Shown here: positions 30 through 51,440 of the stretch, in pieces
Layout: the number at the start of each line of letters is the position of its first letter
Numbering within the stretch: the first letter of the stretch is position 1
NCBI GenBank assembly: GCA_041658785.1
Contig: JBAZZL010000001.1
Span: 5,478-69,477 of the forward strand
Length of the DNA stretch: 64,000 bases
Direction: 5' to 3'
Source of the DNA: Patescibacteria group bacterium
GTDB taxonomy: Bacteria > Patescibacteriota > Patescibacteriia > Magasanikbacterales > UBA922
Translations under genes and position numbers: made by a program
Notes under the pieces: generated by a model
What the model was told of the DNA's origin: nothing
Seen by the model: only the letters and a program-made list of their open reading frames with translations
The model's database searches: none

Positions 30-110
30 GAATTACGAAACAGGCGTAAACTGTCATTCCCGTCCGCCAGCTGGCGGACGGGAATGACAAATGATGACGT
101 TTCGTAATTC
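30..110. repeat. Nested palindromic MITE-like element, family 1 (gaattacgaaac...gtcattcccg..cgggaatgac...gtttcgtaattc)
   Basis: Outer inverted repeat gaattacgaaac/gtttcgtaattc encloses inner inverted repeat gtcattcccgtccgccagctggcggacgggaatgac. Related copies at 1808-1935, 8767-8893, 51724-51829. Confidence 0.7.
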
Positions 111-39714: not shown

Positions 39715-42432
39715 ATGCTAAAAGAGAAACAACGTTTTATCATCATTGACGGCAACGCCATTATCCACCGCGCTTATCACGCCCTGCCGCCCATGACGGC
39801 CAAAGATGGCACCATGGTGAACGCGGTCTATGGCTTTACTTCAATGTTGCTCAAAGTTATTAATGATTTGAAACCCACGCACCTCGCGGTTAGTTTTGAC
39901 GTGGCCGGACCGACGTTTCGCGATAAATTGTACGCGGATTACAAAGCTACGCGCGTGAAAGCCGACCAAGATTTGTATGACCAGATTCCGCTTTGTTATC
40001 AGATTGTGGAAGCGTTTGGGATTCCGATCTATACGAAAGAGGGATTTGAGGCGGATGATGTGATTGGGACGATAACCAAGAAACTGGAAACTGGAAATTT
40101 GAAATTAGATATTGAAGCGATTATTGTGACCGGCGACAAAGATATGTTACAACTCGTTGAAAATGAAAAAGTTGAAGTGTATTTGTTGCGCAAAGGAATG
40201 TCTGATTACCATTTGTTTGATGAGAAAAAAGTAAAGGAAGAGTTTGGTTTTGGACCGGAGATGATAGTAGATTACAAAGCCCTGCGCGGTGACGCATCGG
40301 ATAATATACCGGGGGTGAAAGGGATTGGGGAGAAGACGGCGACGGAGTTGATTACAAAGATTGGGGGGGTTGAAGATATTTACCGAAAGATTGAAAGATT
40401 GAAAGATTATAAGATTAGTGATTCGGTGATTAAAAAATTGGAAGATGGAAAAAGAGATGCGGAGATGAGTAAAAAGTTGGCAACGATTGATACGGACGTG
40501 AAAGGGCTGAAGTTTAGTTTGGATGATTGCGAGACGGGTCGGTTTGACGCGGGGAAGATTGAGGGGATGTTGAAGAAGTTTGAGTTTTTTTCACTGCTTA
40601 AACGTATCCCAGGAGCGAGCGTTGAAAATAAGTTACAAGTTACAAGTTACAAGTTACAGAATGAGAGTAGGAAAAAAATAGACGGCGGCATTGAAATAGA
40701 AATTATTAAGTCAGCCGATGAGGTTAAAAAGTTGGCAAACGAGATTAAAAAAGCCGGAGTTTTTGCGTGTAAAGAAATAGTTAGCGGGAAAAATATTATT
40801 GAAGGAAAATTTGAGGGGCTGGTTTTTGTGGTTGATGGAAATAGTTATTTTGTGGATGGGCGGTTTGACGAATTGGCGGAGATTTTTACTGATCAGAAAA
40901 TTTTACTTATCGGGCACGACCTCAAACAATTAATAAAGGTACTTCAATGTAACAATGAAACAATGAAACAATGTAACAATTTATTTGACACCATGATTGC
41001 TTCCTATGTTTTAAATTCCAGCACCAGAGCCCATGATTTGAAGGCGATTATAATGCGCGAGCTAGGCAAGGATCTGCCGGGAAGTTCTGATCAGGCCAGC
41101 TTGTTTGGAGTGAATCCAAAGATTGCGGCAGAAGAGTTAATTTTGGTTTTGCAAGTTTATCAAAAATATGACAAACAACTTAGTGAGATGGAAGATAAAG
41201 GATTGTTTGAAAAAATAGAAATGGCGCTGATTCCGGTTTTGGCGGAAATGGAATTAAACGGCGTGGCGGTTGATAAGGAGATGCTCGGGCGGCTTTCCAA
41301 AGAAGTGGTCAAAGATATTGACAAAGTTACTAAAAAAATCTGGCAAGAAGCCGGCGAAGAATTTAATGTGTCTTCGCCTGTTCAGTTGCGGGACGTTTTA
41401 TTTGAAAAAATGGGACTGCCGGCGCAAGGAATCAAAAAAGGCAAAACCGGCTATTCCACGGCCTCGCCGGAATTGGAAAAACTGCGGGGCGCGCACCCGA
41501 TTGTTGAATTGATTGAAGAATATCGGGAATTGGAAAAACTGCGCAATACCTATATTGACGTTTTGCCGAATTTAATCAACAAAAAGACCGGTCGCATTCA
41601 CACCACTTTTAATCAGGCAGTAACTACCACCGGCCGACTTTCCAGCTCAGATCCGAATTTACAAAACATTCCCATCAAAACCGAACTGGGGCGGGAAATC
41701 CGCAAAGCGTTTTTGGCGGAAAAAGGATATTGTCTGGTGGTGGCGGATTATTCCCAGATTGAACTGCGCATCGTCGCCTCGCTCGCCGAAGACAAAATTA
41801 TGATGGAGATTTTTGAACGGGGAGAAGACATCCATCAAGCCACCGCGGCGGCCATTAATGGCGTTGGTCTGGACAAAGTAACCAAAGAAATGCGGAGCGC
41901 GGCCAAAGCGGTTAATTTTGGCGTTCTCTACGGCATGGGGTCGTACGGATTATCCTGGCGGGCCGGAATTTCCCAGAGCGAAGCGCGGGAGTTTATTGCC
42001 AAATATTTTGAACAGTTTGCCGGAGTGAAAAAATATCTTGACCAGACGCTTGAATTTGCTAAAAAAGAGGGCTATGTGGAAACCCTGTTCGGCCGGCGGC
42101 GGTATATTCCGGAATTAAAATCCGACAATTTCCAAATGCGAAGCGCGGGCGAGCGAATGGCGATTAATATGCCGATTCAGGGCACGGCCGCGGATTTGAT
42201 GAAGATGGCGATGATTGAGGTGAGCGAAAAGATTAAAAGATTAAAAGATTATAAGATTGGAGAGGTGAAGATTATTTTACAAGTGCATGATGAGTTGGTG
42301 TTGGAGGTGAAGAAGGGGTTGGAAGATGAAATTTCTAAATTAGTAAAAGAAGCGATGGAGGGGGTGGCGAAGTTGCGCGTGCCGATTGGGGTGGATGTGC
42401 GGGTGGGGGCGAGGTGGGGGGAATTAAAATAA
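39715..42432 (+). CDS. polA: DNA polymerase I
   Basis: 5'-3' exonuclease domain (IIDGNAIIHRAYHAL), polymerase motifs A (LVVADYSQIELRI), B (RSAAKAVNFGVLYG) and C (LQVHDELVLEV). In-frame oligonucleotide repeats at 40385-40412, 40632-40659, 40951-40980 and 42226-42257. Confidence 0.95.
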   Translation: MLKEKQRFIIIDGNAIIHRAYHALPPMTAKDGTMVNAVYGFTSMLLKVINDLKPTHLAVSFDVAGPTFRDKLYADYKATRVKADQDLYDQIPLCYQIVEAFGIPIYTKEGFEADDVIGTITKKLETGNLKLDIEAIIVTGDKDMLQLVENEKVEVYLLRKGMSDYHLFDEKKVKEEFGFGPEMIVDYKALRGDASDNIPGVKGIGEKTATELITKIGGVEDIYRKIERLKDYKISDSVIKKLEDGKRDAEMSKKLATIDTDVKGLKFSLDDCETGRFDAGKIEGMLKKFEFFSLLKRIPGASVENKLQVTSYKLQNESRKKIDGGIEIEIIKSADEVKKLANEIKKAGVFACKEIVSGKNIIEGKFEGLVFVVDGNSYFVDGRFDELAEIFTDQKILLIGHDLKQLIKVLQCNNETMKQCNNLFDTMIASYVLNSSTRAHDLKAIIMRELGKDLPGSSDQASLFGVNPKIAAEELILVLQVYQKYDKQLSEMEDKGLFEKIEMALIPVLAEMELNGVAVDKEMLGRLSKEVVKDIDKVTKKIWQEAGEEFNVSSPVQLRDVLFEKMGLPAQGIKKGKTGYSTASPELEKLRGAHPIVELIEEYRELEKLRNTYIDVLPNLINKKTGRIHTTFNQAVTTTGRLSSSDPNLQNIPIKTELGREIRKAFLAEKGYCLVVADYSQIELRIVASLAEDKIMMEIFERGEDIHQATAAAINGVGLDKVTKEMRSAAKAVNFGVLYGMGSYGLSWRAGISQSEAREFIAKYFEQFAGVKKYLDQTLEFAKKEGYVETLFGRRRYIPELKSDNFQMRSAGERMAINMPIQGTAADLMKMAMIEVSEKIKRLKDYKIGEVKIILQVHDELVLEVKKGLEDEISKLVKEAMEGVAKLRVPIGVDVRVGARWGELK

Positions 42433-42968
42433 ACGAGCGCACACGCGTTCCTTCTCCTCGTAGGAGAAGGACAGGTAGAGGTCTCAACGAGCGCATGGTA
42501 ACAAACGAGCGTATGTCAAAAAGAGATCGTTATATCATAGACGACCTGACAAAACAAAGACGAAAACGTTTGCGAATCGGTCCGACAAAAGCAGAGTATG
42601 TGCTGTGGCAGGATTTGAGAAGACAGAAAACCGGGTATAAATTTCGCCGACAAACAAGCATCGACAAGTTTATTGTTGATTTTTATTGTCATGAATTGCG
42701 TTTAGCAATAGAGGTGGATGGATCAATTCATTTAGATGATTTTCAGGCGGAATATGATAGGCGAAGAGAAGAATTTTTACGTCGCCGAGGGTATGTGGTG
42801 ATAAGATTTAAGAATGACGAGGTTTTGTTTGAGCGGGAGAGGGTGATGGGGGTGATTGACGAGTGGTGTAGCAGGTTGGCGGTTAAATATTGAGACATTT
42901 TTTATTGTGCCTGCGCTCGTTGAGACCCTTCCCTGTCCCCCGGACGGGGGAACTCGTTTACCCTCGTT
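42433..42968. mobile_element. Inverted-repeat-flanked mini-element carrying a DUF559 gene, inserted at the polA stop codon
   Basis: Left arm 42433-42492 (aacgagcgcacacgcgttccttctcctcgtaggagaaggacaggtagaggtctcaacgagcgca) and right arm 42912-42968 (reverse complement aacgagggtaaacgagttcccccgtccgggggacagggaagggtctcaacgagcgca). Shared ends, internal hairpins with compensatory sequence. Confidence 0.55.
42513..42893 (+). CDS. DUF559 endonuclease-domain protein (Vsr-like / restriction-endonuclease-like fold)
   Basis: AEYVLWQDLRRQKTGYKFRRQTSIDKFIVDFYCHELRLAIEVDGSIH...RRREEFLRRRGYVVIRFKNDEV matches the DUF559 consensus. The ORF opens inside polA at 42414; the 42513 start is preferred. Confidence 0.7.
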   Translation: MSKRDRYIIDDLTKQRRKRLRIGPTKAEYVLWQDLRRQKTGYKFRRQTSIDKFIVDFYCHELRLAIEVDGSIHLDDFQAEYDRRREEFLRRRGYVVIRFKNDEVLFERERVMGVIDEWCSRLAVKY

Positions 42969-43054
42969 TATTTATCCCCACCCCGCTTGCATTTTAGAGA
43001 GAGAGAGAGTATCCTCCTATTATAGGGAGGATTTTATTTTTAAATTGTATAAAT

Positions 43055-43588
43055 ATGGCGGATACAATGTTCTCTAAAAATTTAGCGGAAACGCACCAGA
43101 AAGCGGAGGGAGCTAAAGAGACCCGGGCAGAACACAAAGCAGTAGAAGATTTGATGACAGCGATTGGCCTGCAAGCCAAATATAATGCCGTCAGGGAAGC
43201 ATATAATAACGGTGTTTTTTCCGGCAAAGCACTTCCAACGGCAGACTTTCTTTTAGGTTCCGAAAGCGCTACACATAGTGGAGACTGTATTAAACTCTAT
43301 AAAGATGAAGATTTTCCGGCATTAAGAAATTTATCTACAGGAGTACACACTAAGGTTGAAACAGAAGAACTATTTCTGGCTTTGCTGACTGATTTGGCAA
43401 ATATTGCCATGAGCGAGCGGGACGATGAAATATTAAATATTAAAAAATGTAAGGTCATCAAGGGTGAAAATGACCAAGCGATCTTTATGACTCGCAAAAG
43501 ATTGGCCGAAGCAGCAATCAAAAAGGTGATTGACGCCATGTATGGCTGGTCGGAAAATTACAAGCAAGAGAAAGCGCAAGTAAAGTAA
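43055..43588 (+). CDS. Hypothetical protein
   Basis: 177-aa soluble ORF with no recognisable family. Preceded by the terminator atcctcctattatagggaggat and followed by a hairpin plus T-run at about 43600-43640. Confidence 0.5.
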   Translation: MADTMFSKNLAETHQKAEGAKETRAEHKAVEDLMTAIGLQAKYNAVREAYNNGVFSGKALPTADFLLGSESATHSGDCIKLYKDEDFPALRNLSTGVHTKVETEELFLALLTDLANIAMSERDDEILNIKKCKVIKGENDQAIFMTRKRLAEAAIKKVIDAMYGWSENYKQEKAQVK

Positions 43589-43735
43589 TAAAAATTGAAG
43601 AAAATAAAATACCGCCCCGAGTCTCCGGGACGGTATTTTTGTTCGCATTGCATGCCTCGCTACATGCGTCGCGCCTCGTGTTTCTTCCCATCCTTCCACA
43701 AAAAATCAAAATACGCGCGGTAGGCCTGAGCGGTT

Positions 43736-44575
43736 ATGAGCTGTAGAAGAATATCGGACAGATGTGATAAAATAGATATGATTCTTTTTATGTTCAACGA
43801 ATTGTTTCGCAATAAATACCGTATCGCATCAGCCCGCCATCCGAATTGGAATTACACGTCCGTTGGGCGTTATTTTGTGACGATTTGCACGGGCGGACGG
43901 ATTTGCCATTTTGGCAAAATTGAAAATGGTGGTATGATATTATCCCCGACGGGCAGAATTGTTCGGGAGGAATGGTTGAAAACGCCGCGAATTCGCGATA
44001 ATATAAAATTGGACGCGTGGGTGGTGATGCCGAACCATTTGCATGGGATTGTGGTGATAAAAACATTGGGGGAAAATAAAATGGCGGTAATGTCAGGTTC
44101 AACGACAAATGGCGGTGATGAAAACGTGGGTGATGGGAATGATGCGGGCGGTGGGGAAAACGTTGGTGACGGAATAAACGTTGGCGGTGGGAATAACGTT
44201 GGCGGTAGAGACGCCCCGCCGGGGCGTCTCTACGATTGCATTCCACCAAACGATTGCATTCCACCAAACGATTGCATTCCACCAAACGATTGCATTATTA
44301 CCAACGTTGACAATGCATCCGTGAACGCAATCAACCGATCGTCCAATACCGGCGGCCCCAATCCCAATTGGAAACCCAATTCGTTGGGTTCAATTGTCAA
44401 CCAATTTAAATCAATTTGCACCAAACGGATTCGTTCGGCCGGACATTCGGATTTTTCCTGGCAGGCGCGATTCCACGACCATATTATCCGCAACGAAATC
44501 GCGTTGAATAATATCCGCCGATATATTAAACAAAATCCCCAAAAATGGGGTACGGATTGTTTTCATGTTTTATGA
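43736..44575 (+). CDS. IS200/IS605-type Y1 (HuH) transposase, REP-associated (RAYT-like), with a roughly 100-aa low-complexity and palindrome insert
   Basis: HuH motif WVVMPNHLHGIVVI; C-terminal SWQARFHDHIIRNEIALNNIRRYIKQNP block. Insert = G/N/D-rich segment, 29-nt palindrome (44205-44233) and 4x DCIPPN from an 18-bp repeat (44231-44296). Confidence 0.6.
   Translation: MSCRRISDRCDKIDMILFMFNELFRNKYRIASARHPNWNYTSVGRYFVTICTGGRICHFGKIENGGMILSPTGRIVREEWLKTPRIRDNIKLDAWVVMPNHLHGIVVIKTLGENKMAVMSGSTTNGGDENVGDGNDAGGGENVGDGINVGGGNNVGGRDAPPGRLYDCIPPNDCIPPNDCIPPNDCIITNVDNASVNAINRSSNTGGPNPNWKPNSLGSIVNQFKSICTKRIRSAGHSDFSWQARFHDHIIRNEIALNNIRRYIKQNPQKWGTDCFHVL
44205..44233. repeat. Perfect REP-like palindrome GTAGAGACGCCCCGCCGGGGCGTCTCTAC inside the RAYT ORF
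   Basis: 13-bp perfect arms. A second copy with an added 18-bp direct repeat sits at 45215-45261 inside holA. Confidence 0.85.
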
Positions 44576-45708
44576 TTATATTTTTATACGGCCCGGACAC
44601 CTTCCGTAGCCGGCAACAATTGAAAAAAATGATCGCCAAGTTCAAACATGACCGCGACCCGCAAGGGCTGAATGTGGTTCGTTTGGACGCGGAAAAAGAA
44701 GAAGACACCCGCCGGGTTACGAGCGAAATTTTGGCTACGCCGTTTTTGGCCGAGCGGCGGATGGTGGTGATTGAAAATTTGTTAAATTCTAAACAGACGG
44801 ATTTATTGGAAGGGTTATTGAAAAGAATTGAAGAAAAAAAAATGCCGGAATCAAACGTGATTATTTTTTGGGAAGCGCTGGACGATCCGGCGCAAAAGAA
44901 AAAAGGGGATGAAACGGCAACGCCAAAAACCAAGGCGGCGAAAGAACTGTTCGCGCGTTTGCAAAAAGAAAAATACGCCCAGCGGTTTGAATTATTTTCC
45001 GGCGCCAAACTGGCGACCTGGATCGCGGGCGAAGTAAAAGAACGCGGCGGCGTCATTGACCGGCCCGCGGTCGATTATCTGGCCGCGAACGTGGGGGGCG
45101 ACATGTGGCGGTTGAATTCGTTGATTGGACAATTGGTGGCGTATTGTTATTCCGAAGGCGGCGACGGTGCGTTGCGTGGGGACGCCACGGCACATGGGGA
45201 CACCCCGGCGGCGGGTAGAGACGCCCCGGCGGGTAGAGACGCCCCGGCGGGGCGTCTCTACGCCGTTGACAGGGTTGCGGAGGCAATACGGGCAAAGGAC
45301 GTCCAATTGTTTCTAGACGAACGCGCCGACGACAACATTTTCAATCTGGTAGACGCCATTGTCGCGAAAAATCCCAAACAGGTTTTTGTCATGATTCAGG
45401 AACAATATAATAAAGGCGAGGACGCGCAGTATATTTTTGCGATGTTAATAAGGCAGTTTCGTATTTTGTTGGAACTCCGAGACATGTTTGACCGCGAAGA
45501 TAATATCCAGAGCGGCGTTCTGGCGCAAAAGTTGGGGCTCCATCCGTTTGTGGTGAAAAAATCACTGCCTTTGGTCAAGCGATACACCATGGCGGAATTA
45601 AAAAACATTTACGAACGCCTGCTTGAGCTGGATATCCAAACAAAAACCGGCCAGGGCGGCCAGTCGTTGTTGTTGGATATTTTCGTTGGGAGAATCTGCG
45701 CGGAGTAG
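44572..45708 (+). CDS. holA: DNA polymerase III delta subunit
   Basis: About 380 aa, clamp-loader delta-like N-terminal (IIFLYGPDTF) and C-terminal helical domains. ATGA overlap with the RAYT stop. Convergent with rpsT, a common arrangement. Contains an in-frame REP-like insert (AGRDAPAGRDAPAGRLY). Confidence 0.65.
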   Translation: MIIFLYGPDTFRSRQQLKKMIAKFKHDRDPQGLNVVRLDAEKEEDTRRVTSEILATPFLAERRMVVIENLLNSKQTDLLEGLLKRIEEKKMPESNVIIFWEALDDPAQKKKGDETATPKTKAAKELFARLQKEKYAQRFELFSGAKLATWIAGEVKERGGVIDRPAVDYLAANVGGDMWRLNSLIGQLVAYCYSEGGDGALRGDATAHGDTPAAGRDAPAGRDAPAGRLYAVDRVAEAIRAKDVQLFLDERADDNIFNLVDAIVAKNPKQVFVMIQEQYNKGEDAQYIFAMLIRQFRILLELRDMFDREDNIQSGVLAQKLGLHPFVVKKSLPLVKRYTMAELKNIYERLLELDIQTKTGQGGQSLLLDIFVGRICAE

Positions 45709-45741: not shown

Positions 45742-45775
45742 CCCCTTCCCCTACGAGGGGAAGGGGAACTTTTTA
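45742..45775. terminator. Bidirectional terminator between holA and rpsT (ccccttcccctacgaggggaagggg)
   Basis: Perfect 10-bp stem followed by T-run on plus strand. Confidence 0.7.
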
Positions 45776-51237: not shown

Positions 51238-51440
51238 ACACGTGAAATAATCAATGGTATGAACCCCAGAATAAGCTTTGGGTCCTTGTTCCGCAACAAG
51301 CTGATGAGAATTAAATTGTTTTTTTGTCCGGCCCGTCTTCTCCAGCCCGCCAGCTGGCGGACGGGCGACGCAGGGTAAACTCCGTCAACTGGCGGAGACG
51401 GAACTTGTCCGGCGCAGCCCACAGGCGTAGACGGATTAAG
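51238..51440. repeat. Family 3 repeat copy (reverse complement of 31395-31500) split by a family-1-like insert (about 51300-51410)
   Basis: Termini align to both ends of 31395-31500. The insert carries cccgtcttctccagcccgccagctggcggacggg, related to 45-95. Confidence 0.65.

What the first reader, a model, noticed from the sequence alone, without database searches (positions are those of the whole stretch)
43736..45708. RAYT-like Y1 transposase and holA both carry the same REP-like 29-nt palindrome in frame
ORF 43736-44575 has both halves of an IS200/RAYT-type HuH transposase (VMPNHLHGIV ... WQARFHDHIIRNE...RYIKQNP). The halves are separated by about 100 aa of low-complexity sequence. That segment holds the perfect palindrome GTAGAGACGCCCCGCCGGGGCGTCTCTAC (44205-44233) and an 18-bp x3.5 tandem repeat encoding DCIPPN. 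A near-identical palindrome, plus an 18-bp direct duplication, is in frame in the adjacent essential holA gene (45215-45261, peptide AGRDAPAGRDAPAGRLY). It is established that RAYTs mobilise REP hairpins. I infer that this palindrome is the cognate REP, and that REP copies have landed inside coding sequence, including the transposase's own gene, without breaking the reading frames. REP elements are normally intergenic, so coding-embedded REPs next to their putative RAYT would be unusual. The RAYT may instead be a decayed pseudogene.
Basis: partly seen in the sequence, partly recalled or inferred. Interest (0 to 1): 0.72.

Follow-up and report, generated by a model that had tools for sequence, protein, structure and literature searches.

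The report
RAYT gene carrying its own REP
This is a REP-associated tyrosine transposase gene of a published subclass whose hallmark is an in-frame copy of its own hairpin repeat inside the gene, with a second copy in a tolerant linker of the neighbouring holA gene; it is real and tidy, but already described.

Summary
A 29-nt hairpin repeat (14-nt arms, one central base; GTAG at one end, CTAC at the other) lies in frame in a RAYT-like ORF. Its exact reverse complement lies in frame in holA, about 1 kb downstream. Both copies abut 18-nt tandem duplications.

The ORF is an intact Y1/HuH enzyme whose best structural match is E. coli TnpAREP. Its roughly 99-aa insert is a disordered loop between the HuH strand and the next helix. 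The palindrome behaves as the cognate REP.

It is not unusual. Quentin et al. 2018 (BMC Genomics 19:475) define TnpAY1 subclass 2.4, which equals Bertels' RAYT Group 4. [quoted passage not shown] Di Nocera et al. 2013 had already reported intragenic REPs, many in replication and repair genes.

My data agree. 87 of 120 homologues carry the REP-encoded peptide at the same loop. Internal and flanking REPs match within loci. holA orthologues mostly have a 5-aa linker where this gene carries the insert.

The pseudogene alternative is not supported. The genome-wide copy number in this organism could not be tested.

The parts
43790..44575 (+). RAYT / TnpAREP gene of TnpAY1 subclass 2.4 type. The ORF opens at 43736. 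The probable start is the ATG at 43790. The stop TGA overlaps the holA ATG (ATGA at 44572-44575).
   Evidence: 6563 homologues, the best at E 4e-59, several named 'REP element-mobilizing transposase RayT'. NCBIfam REP_Tyr_transpos scores 60 bits and Pfam Y1_Tnp 19 bits, both below cut-off because the insert splits the match. The AF2 core has pLDDT above 90. The best PDB fold match is 4ER8, TnpAREP.
44036..44044 (+). HuH motif (H-L-H within VMPNHLHG)
   Evidence: H83 and H85 are invariant in the 51-sequence alignment. They align to the HuH motif of 4ER8.
44069..44365 (+). Variable in-frame insert of 99 aa between the HuH strand and the next helix. It contains the REP and both 18-nt arrays.
   Evidence: pLDDT is below 50 over residues about 102-188. 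The HuH-to-NSLGS spacing is 117 aa here against a median of 44 (range 19-108) in homologues. GC is 52% against 44% for the rest of the gene.
44110..44206 (.). Degenerate 18-nt tandem array (x5.4) running in register into the REP left arm; encodes GGxxNV-type hexapeptides
44205..44233 (.). REP copy 1: a 'double foot' REP with 5' GTAG, a 14-bp stem, a 1-nt loop and 3' CTAC; read as GRDAPPGRLY
   Evidence: (I6)
44232..44296 (.). Perfect 18-nt tandem array (x3.6) starting at the REP 3' foot; encodes DCIPPN repeats
   Evidence: (D1)
44459..44464 (+). Conserved W-Q, equivalent to W94/Q95 of E. coli TnpAREP. Published work implicates this region in GTAG recognition.
   Evidence: PMC6006769
44522..44539 (+). 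Catalytic tyrosine motif YIKQNP (class 2 signature Y---NP)
   Evidence: Y245 and N249 are invariant. The motif aligns to YIYINP of 4ER8.
44572..45708 (+). holA (DNA polymerase III delta subunit), 378 aa
   Evidence: TIGR01128 at 183 bits; PF06144 and PF21694. Orthologues are Candidatus Magasanikbacteria, at most 64% identical.
45145..45285 (+). GC-rich in-frame insert in holA (141 nt, 72% GC against 48% for the rest of the gene). It sits at the linker between the N-terminal and C-terminal delta domains.
   Evidence: Most orthologues are about 323 aa with a 5-aa linker at this position.
45209..45251 (.). Perfect 18-nt duplication of the REP left arm plus loop (GGTAGAGACGCCCCGGCG x2.4). More decayed arm-like units lie upstream (45193-45223, 61%).
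   Evidence: (D2)
45233..45261 (.). REP copy 2: the exact reverse complement of copy 1, 658 nt downstream of the RAYT stop; read as GRDAPAGRLY
   Evidence: (I1, I7)

Best explanation
This is a REPtron of the published TnpAY1 subclass 2.4 / RAYT Group 4 kind, carried by a Candidatus Magasanikbacteria (Patescibacteria) genome.

The gene at 43790-44575 encodes a monomer-type Y1 HuH single-strand DNA endonuclease/ligase. Its cognate substrate is the 29-nt 'double foot' REP hairpin: GTAG, a 14-bp stem and CTAC.

By analogy with E. coli, S. maltophilia and Marinomonas TnpAREP (inference), the enzyme binds the folded hairpin on single-stranded DNA. It uses the GTAG foot as a guide, then cuts and rejoins nearby. 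REP copies therefore accumulate preferentially close to the gene.

Two of the three reading frames on either strand of this REP are stop-free: VETPRRGVST and GRDAPPGRLY. Copies whose total inserted length is a multiple of three therefore survive selection when they land in a structurally tolerant loop.

One such loop is the beta3-alphaC loop of the RAYT itself, which is the family hallmark. The other here is the inter-domain linker of holA. holA starts at the RAYT stop codon, so it occupies the position where a flanking REP would normally sit in intergenic DNA.

The 18-nt tandem arrays abutting both REPs are local duplications of arm-sized units followed by decay. Their mechanism is not shown; hairpin-promoted slippage or RAYT nicking are both possible.
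For: SHOWN HERE
- Homology, fold and motifs: 6563 homologues. The AF2 core is confident and the best PDB match is 4ER8, TnpAREP bound to REP, at E 1.6e-4, followed by IS608, ISDra2 and IS200 TnpA. HuH, WQ and Y---NP are intact, and all 24 invariant alignment columns are present.
- The insert is a disordered loop.
- Family hallmark: 87 of 120 top homologues, from Cyanobacteria, Chloroflexi, Acidobacteria and CPR, carry a strict REP-encoded peptide. Nearly all the rest carry degenerate versions. All sit after the HuH motif. 35 of 69 metagenomic RAYT loci have a clean GT[AG]G...C[TC]AC palindrome between HuH and WQ.
- Hairpin selection at the DNA level: across 142 genomic hits to GTAGAGACG-N11-CGTCTCTAC, the free 5+1+5 core is self-complementary in most, with many different sequences.
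- Cognate relation: internal and flanking REPs match within a locus (median edit distance 1 against 9 between loci; p about 2e-4). REP density is 6.6-fold higher within 1 kb of the gene than beyond it. The holA copy is 658 nt from the RAYT stop.
- Dispersal: only 4 of 132 REP-hit loci contain a RAYT. Copies are depleted in long ORFs (31% against 80% for random positions), but a minority are coding.
- holA insertion: most Magasanikbacteria orthologues have a 5-aa linker at this position, and the insert is 72% GC.

PUBLISHED
- Subclass 2.4 features (PMC6006769).
- Intragenic REPs in replication and repair genes (PMC3733652).
- Role of GTAG in cleavage-site choice (PMC8266576).
Against: - Only two REP sites occur in the 64 kb window, so high-copy dispersal in this particular genome is not shown.
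- Scores against the curated profiles are below cut-off: NCBIfam 60 against 80, Pfam 19.3 against 23.
- The HuH middle residue is L, whereas the published subclass consensus lists I/F/V. The Y motif is YIKQNP rather than YIxNNP.
- No reference subclass 2.4 sequence was compared directly.
- No activity, transcription or translation data exist for this gene.
- The insert is the longest among the top homologues, which could impair the enzyme.
Confidence: 0.85

Rival explanations
1. The internal REP is not merely tolerated. It is a maintained functional part of the system. It could be a protected 'master copy' that travels with the gene on horizontal transfer and seeds new genomes. It could also be an autoregulatory site where the enzyme binds its own gene or mRNA.
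For: The REP is nearly universal at one loop across phyla. Internal and flanking copies are identical in 6 of 15 loci. The basal stem GTAGAGACG is conserved across many phyla, and the gene has a patchy distribution (PMC6006769).
Against: The same pattern follows from local hopping plus a single tolerant loop. Some homologues lack the REP altogether (P0019, P0085, P0093, P0117). The inserts show decay and turnover: degenerate arrays and variable copy number and length. The REP is read in different frames in different homologues. No test here separates the two ideas.
Confidence: 0.12
2. The RAYT ORF is a decaying pseudogene, and its middle segment is junk accumulated after inactivation.
For: Profile scores are below cut-off. 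The insert is the longest in the family (117 aa HuH-to-NSLGS against a maximum of 108 in homologues). The content is low-complexity.
Against: The 786-nt frame is open through 297 nt of repeats whose units are all multiples of 3. All 24 invariant family residues are present, including HuH, WQ and the catalytic Y. The core is modelled at pLDDT above 90. The stop codon overlaps the holA start (ATGA), as in a translationally coupled operon. Intact inserts are the family norm (PMC6006769).
Confidence: 0.05
3. The palindrome is selected at the peptide level, or as a host regulatory hairpin such as a terminator or attenuator. It is unrelated to the transposase.
For: The hairpin is strong: z = -3.6 and -4.6 against shuffles for the two regions. 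Published work suggests many REPs act as RNA elements (PMC3733652).
Against: The same DNA is read as VETPRRGVST in most homologues and as GRDAPPGRLY here, and occurs in both orientations. The peptide is therefore not the selected unit. Arm changes are compensatory at the DNA level. The hairpin sits inside an essential gene without a T-run, which is not terminator-like. It is tightly linked to RAYT genes.
Confidence: 0.03

Closest known systems
TnpAY1 subclass 2.4 REPtrons (Quentin, Siguier, Chandler & Fichant 2018, BMC Genomics 19:475), equal to RAYT Group 4 of Bertels et al. 2017
   Same: N-H-u-H, WQ and Y---NP motifs. A variable-length insertion between beta3 and alphaC. 'Double foot' REPs (5' GT[AG]G plus 3' C[TC]AC). 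[quoted passage not shown] Further REPs within +/-1000 nt. Occurrence across many phyla. Short DNA repeats that explain insert heterogeneity.
   Different: The host is a Patescibacteria (CPR) genome, which that paper does not name. The HuH middle residue is L and the Y motif is YIKQNP. The insert is exceptionally long (99 aa). The flanking REP lies inside the adjacent essential gene rather than in intergenic DNA.
E. coli TnpAREP / REP (PDB 4ER8; Messing et al. 2012; Corneloup et al. 2021), subclass 2.2 / Group 2
   Same: Same fold (best Foldseek hit), same catalytic motifs, and a GTAG-footed hairpin substrate.
   Different: E. coli REPs are bulged imperfect hairpins with a single foot. They are extragenic and number in the hundreds. 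The E. coli protein has no beta3-alphaC insert and has a C-terminal tail. Sequence identity is only about 14%.
Intragenic GTAG/CGTC REPs and Rickettsia palindromic elements (Di Nocera et al. 2013, BMC Genomics 14:522, and the RPE work it cites)
   Same: Small palindromic repeats inserted in frame in protein-coding genes, often as dimers or grouped units encoding 20-80 aa. They are enriched in DNA replication and repair genes.
   Different: That survey did not list holA or a CPR host among its examples. Here the intragenic copy is directly adjacent to its RAYT.
IS200/IS605 insertion sequences (TnpA Y1 transposases)
   Same: Y1 HuH chemistry on single-stranded DNA hairpins, with a 5' guide tetranucleotide.
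   Different: IS200/IS605 elements are multi-copy. Subterminal hairpins bound the whole element, the motif is Y---Q, and tnpB is often present. Here the gene occurs once in the window, has no tnpB and carries the Y---NP motif.

Membership tests
TnpAY1 subclass 2.4 / RAYT Group 4 | Y1 HuH (IS200/TnpAREP) fold | tested here: met
   The AF2 core has pLDDT above 90. The Foldseek top hit is 4ER8 TnpAREP at E 1.6e-4, followed by IS608, ISDra2 and IS200 TnpA.
TnpAY1 subclass 2.4 / RAYT Group 4 | HuH motif NH[IFV]H | tested here: inconclusive
   This protein has NHLH (44033-44044). L is not in the published subclass consensus. It is listed among the class 2 'u' residues, and many close homologues also have NHLH.
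TnpAY1 subclass 2.4 / RAYT Group 4 | W motif WQ and Y motif YIxNNP (class 2 signature Y---NP) | tested here: met
   The protein has SWQARFHDH and RYIKQNP. W224, Q225, Y245 and N249 are conserved in the alignment. One position differs from the subclass consensus (Q for N).
TnpAY1 subclass 2.4 / RAYT Group 4 | Variable-length insertion between beta3 (HuH strand) and alphaC | tested here: met
   Strand E83-90 is followed by a disordered segment at 100-190 and then helix H199-216. The insert is 99 aa.
TnpAY1 subclass 2.4 / RAYT Group 4 | [quoted passage not shown] | tested here: met
   The REP is at 44205-44233, in frame. The same holds in 87 of 120 homologues and 35 of 69 related loci.
TnpAY1 subclass 2.4 / RAYT Group 4 | Cognate REP copies within +/-1000 nt of the gene | tested here: met
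   An identical REP lies 658 nt downstream, in holA. None was found upstream. Related loci show a 6.6-fold enrichment within 1 kb.
TnpAY1 subclass 2.4 / RAYT Group 4 | Clusters with reference subclass 2.4 sequences (MCL/HMM classification of the paper) | not tested
   No reference sequences or subclass HMMs were available. Assignment rests on motifs, architecture and the taxonomy of homologues (Cyanobacteria, Chloroflexi and others).
TnpAY1 subclass 2.4 / RAYT Group 4 | Low gene copy number per genome (about 1.5) | not testable with these tools
   There is one copy in the 64 kb window. The whole genome is not available.
NCBIfam NF047646 REP_Tyr_transpos (equivalog) and Pfam PF01797 Y1_Tnp | Score at or above the curated cut-off | tested here: not met
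   NCBIfam scores 60.2 against a cut-off of 80, and Pfam 19.3 against 23. The match is split by the 99-aa insert. Many close homologues carry precomputed PF01797 hits.
GTAG-type REP, 'double foot' variant | 5' GT[AG]G foot, 3' C[TC]AC foot, and a stable stem-loop of 20-40 nt | tested here: met
   The sequence is GTAG, a 14-bp stem with a 1-nt loop, and CTAC.
GTAG-type REP, 'double foot' variant | Stem maintained by compensatory changes across family members | tested here: met
   The variable 5+1+5 core is self-complementary in most of 142 hits, with dozens of different sequences. This is also seen as P..G, F..N and T..V pairs in the peptides.
GTAG-type REP, 'double foot' variant | Many dispersed copies in the host genome | not testable with these tools
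   The window holds only 2 sites. Published Group 4 flanking 16-mers are low-copy, at about 14 per replicon.
Intragenic (in-frame) REP insertion | Orthologues lack the segment, the frame is preserved, and the insertion lies in a linker or loop | tested here: met
   Most of 120 holA orthologues have a 5-aa linker where this gene has about 47 aa. The Pfam domains on either side are intact. The insert is 72% GC.
RAYT function | Binds and cleaves cognate single-stranded REP | not testable with these tools
   This requires a biochemical assay, such as the cleavage/strand-transfer (CST) assay of PMC8266576.

The most novel reading that the evidence does not exclude
The in-gene REP of subclass 2.4 RAYTs may be a selected, protected master copy or autoregulatory site. 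The gene and its substrate would then form one self-contained unit that can seed REPs after horizontal transfer, even into a streamlined CPR genome. The arm-sized tandem arrays that abut REPs would be footprints of RAYT nicking. The published view treats the internal REP only as a tolerated insertion.
Probability: 0.12. Interest if true: 0.55.

Novelty: new member of a known kind. Interest (0 to 1): 0.2.

Why it matters
The main value is correct annotation. The ORF should be called an intact RAYT/TnpAREP of subclass 2.4, not a pseudogene or a low-complexity hypothetical protein. The odd GC-rich segment in holA is a REP insertion, not an assembly error.

It extends the known host range of this REPtron type to Patescibacteria. 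It also gives a clean example of how compact genomes accommodate REPs, by placing them in frame in permissive linkers.

The finding does not open a new question. The only open point is whether the in-gene REP has a function.

Tried and rejected
1. I tested whether the 18-nt arrays upstream and downstream of the RAYT REP are inverted copies of each other, which would make a roughly 190-nt super-palindrome. The local alignment of the reverse-complemented upstream array to the downstream one scores 18. Shuffles give 12.9 +/- 2.1 with a maximum of 23. Rejected.

2. A full-text literature search for the REP peptides and the 9-mer (VETPRRGVST, GRDAPPGRLY, GTAGAGACG and others) returned only unrelated primer matches. 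The relevant papers came from a RAYT/REPIN/IS200 search instead.

3. A single-sequence search of PDB sequences gave only a weak hit to 4ER8 (E 0.008). The fold search on the AF2 model was needed to confirm it.

4. A strict palindrome scan (stem of at least 9, at most 1 mismatch) of holA genes in relatives L214, L215 and L217 found nothing in their inserts. Folding showed long imperfect palindromes for L214 (z -7.1) and L215 (z -2.95). My coordinates for the L217 insert were off, so that case is inconclusive.

5. The viral-contig scan for the REP pattern gave only 12 loci, and I did not pursue it.

It gives no per-genome copy numbers, and the source genome was not identified in it.

7. An assembly artefact is unlikely. 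The identical RAYT protein is called on a separately deposited JGI metagenome contig. That contig could derive from the same sample.
Full report
OBSERVATION

The 29-mer GTAGAGACGCCCCG-C-CGGGGCGTCTCTAC lies at 44205-44233. It has 14-nt arms and one central unpaired base. Its exact reverse complement lies at 45233-45261. No shuffle of the window produced any match. The 9-mer foot-plus-stem GTAGAGACG occurs only at these two places in 64 kb, with 5 hits against 0.16 expected.

Tandem Repeats Finder confirms three arrays:
- a perfect 18-nt x 3.6 array at 44232-44296, encoding DCIPPN and beginning at the REP 3' foot;
- a degenerate 18-nt x 5.4 array at 44110-44206, running in register into the left arm;
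- a perfect 18-nt x 2.4 duplication of the left arm plus loop in holA, at 45209-45251.

Both hairpin regions fold more stably than shuffles, with z = -3.6 and -4.6. Read directly from the sequence, two of the three frames on either strand are stop-free: VETPRRGVST and GRDAPPGRLY. The third frame contains TAG.

THE ORF

The ORF 43736-44575 probably starts at the ATG at 43790. Homologues begin M-x-LFKNKYRIES, which corresponds to MFNELFRNKYRIAS here.

It scores below cut-off against Pfam Y1_Tnp (19.3 against 23) and NCBIfam REP_Tyr_transpos (60 against 80), because a 99-aa insert splits the match. It nevertheless has 6563 homologues, the best at E 4e-59. Several are named RayT by their source.

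In a 51-sequence alignment it retains all 24 invariant residues. These include H83/H85 (HuH), W224/Q225 and Y245/N249.

An AlphaFold2 model gives pLDDT above 90 for residues 20-95 and 195-255, and below 50 for about 102-188. The insert is therefore a disordered loop between the HuH strand and the next helix.

The best structural match in the PDB is 4ER8, E. coli TnpAREP bound to a REP hairpin. It is followed by IS608, ISDra2 and IS200 transposases.

The stop codon overlaps the holA start (ATGA at 44572-44575). Nothing suggests a pseudogene.

A FAMILY HALLMARK, NOT A ONE-OFF

Of the 120 best homologues, 87 carry a strict REP-encoded peptide: VETPRRGVST, VETFRRNVST, VETTRRVVST, GRDAPPGRLY and similar. 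These homologues come from Cyanobacteria, Chloroflexi, Acidobacteria, Moranbacteria and other groups. Most of the remaining 33 carry degenerate or partial versions. All sit after the HuH motif. A few (P0019, P0085, P0093, P0117) lack it.

Paired residue changes (P..G, F..N, T..V) are compensatory changes in the two hairpin arms.

In 80 metagenomic RAYT loci, 69 had recognisable HuH and WQ motifs. Of those, 35 had a clean GT[AG]G...C[TC]AC palindrome between the two motifs.

Where a locus has both an internal and an external REP, the two match. The median edit distance is 1 within loci against 9 between loci. Ten of 15 own-locus pairs are within 2 edits, against 5 of 210 cross-locus pairs. The permutation p is about 2e-4.

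External REPs are 6.6 times denser within 1 kb of the gene than beyond it. The copy in holA is 658 nt from the RAYT stop.

THE REP FAMILY AT LARGE

Hits came from Cyanobacteria, Chloroflexota, Bacteroidota, Rhodothermales, Acidobacteriota, Patescibacteria, Omnitrophota, Nitrospirota and others.

The unconstrained 5+1+5 core is self-complementary in most hits, with many different sequences. This is what selection on a hairpin predicts.

Only 4 of 132 hit loci contain a RAYT gene, so the element is dispersed. Copies are depleted in long ORFs: 31% are spanned by an ORF of at least 150 aa, against 80% of random positions. A sizeable minority are still coding.

holA

The orthologues are Candidatus Magasanikbacteria, at most 64% identical. 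Most are about 323 aa, with a 5-aa linker (for example KNGEE) between the N- and C-terminal delta domains. This gene has about 47 aa at that position (45145-45285), at 72% GC against 48% for the rest of the gene.

The upstream part of the insert looks like older, decayed copies of the same arm-sized unit. The peptide reads GDATAH-GDTPAA-GRDAPA-GRDAPA-GRLY.

Related genomes have a different gene in the slot between polA and holA: a methyltransferase, TrmB or PDDEXK_3. The RAYT is therefore an accessory arrival there.

Because holA starts at the RAYT stop, there is no downstream intergenic DNA. A flanking REP can survive there only in frame, in a tolerant linker.

COMPARISON WITH WHAT IS KNOWN

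Quentin, Siguier, Chandler and Fichant (BMC Genomics 2018, 19:475; PMC6006769) define TnpAY1 subclass 2.4, equal to Bertels' Group 4. Its features are:
- the motifs NH[IFV]H, WQ and YIxNNP;
- a variable insertion between beta3 and alphaC;
- REPs of 'long' and 'double foot' type, the latter with 5' GT[AG]G and 3' C[TC]AC.

[quoted passage not shown] Further REPs occur within +/-1000 nt. They also note short DNA repeats that explain the heterogeneity of the insert.

Di Nocera et al. (BMC Genomics 2013, 14:522; PMC3733652) had already reported REPs inside genes, many in replication and global repair genes.

Bertels et al. 2017 report that Group 4 is common in Cyanobacteria, Chlorobia and Caldilineae. 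It is associated with only moderately abundant flanking 16-mers, about 14 per replicon. That fits the low local copy number seen here.

The mechanism is inferred from work on E. coli, S. maltophilia and Marinomonas enzymes. The enzyme binds the folded single-stranded hairpin, uses GTAG as a guide for the cleavage site, and cuts at CT or CA (PMC3479197, PMC8266576). It was not tested for this protein.

VERDICT

The claim of unusualness is not: this is a new member, in a CPR host, of a published kind.

What remains untested:
- the genome-wide REP count in this organism;
- formal classification with the authors' subclass models;
- expression and activity.

The only reading with some novelty is that the in-gene REP is functional, as a master copy or autoregulatory site. 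My data do not separate that from local hopping into the one tolerant loop.

Noticed in passing
L214:2828-3937, L215:1062-2261; proteins P0121-P0240: The same holA inter-domain linker carries other, unrelated in-frame inserts in many Magasanikbacteria orthologues. Examples are CHSERPEGVEES...ALGMT, PVPSEVEGRNL..., VIARSEERATKQS...GLAMTG and PPLTPPYRGG. The L214 insert folds as a long imperfect palindrome (z = -7.1) and the L215 insert at z = -2.95. The linker looks like a recurrent landing or tolerance site for several families of palindromic elements.
   Followed up: partly
window 52-89 and 51332-51375: A perfect 19+19 nt palindrome, TGTCATTCCCGTCCGCCAG/CTGGCGGACGGGAATGACA, with a related imperfect copy 51 kb away. 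Its TGTCATTCC...GGAATGACA ends resemble the ends of the palindromic insert in the L214 holA. This is probably a second family of small palindromic repeats in this genome.
   Followed up: no
window 45742-45774: A 10-bp GC-rich hairpin (CCCCTTCCCC tacga GGGGAAGGGG) followed by a T-run, lying between the convergent holA and rpsT genes. It looks like an intrinsic terminator.
   Followed up: no
window 42414-43790; L214-L218: The slot between polA and holA varies among related genomes. It holds a DUF559 endonuclease, an unknown 177-aa gene and the RAYT here. Relatives have a methyltransferase, TrmB or PDDEXK_3 instead. It appears to be a small hotspot for accessory genes.
   Followed up: partly
window 44572-44575: The RAYT stop codon TGA overlaps the holA start codon ATG (ATGA). 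This suggests co-transcription and possibly translational coupling of the transposase-like gene with an essential replication gene.
   Followed up: no
P0038, P0023, P0103, P0118: In some homologues REP-encoded peptides also appear in N- or C-terminal extensions of the called protein, for example MIEVETFRRNVST... at the N-terminus. Flanking REPs are therefore being read into the annotated ORFs.
   Followed up: no
L002-L013 (viral contigs): Twelve IMG/VR contigs carry the GTAGAGACG-N11-CGTCTCTAC palindrome, and one carries two copies. I did not examine whether these are true phages, prophage flanks or misbinned host DNA.
   Followed up: no
L031:98-3977 (Rhodothermales MAG): Four copies of one REP variant (core CATCGCCGATG) lie within 4 kb. 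Two of them are inside a 1050-aa ORF only 108 nt apart. This is a dense cluster of coding REPs.
   Followed up: no
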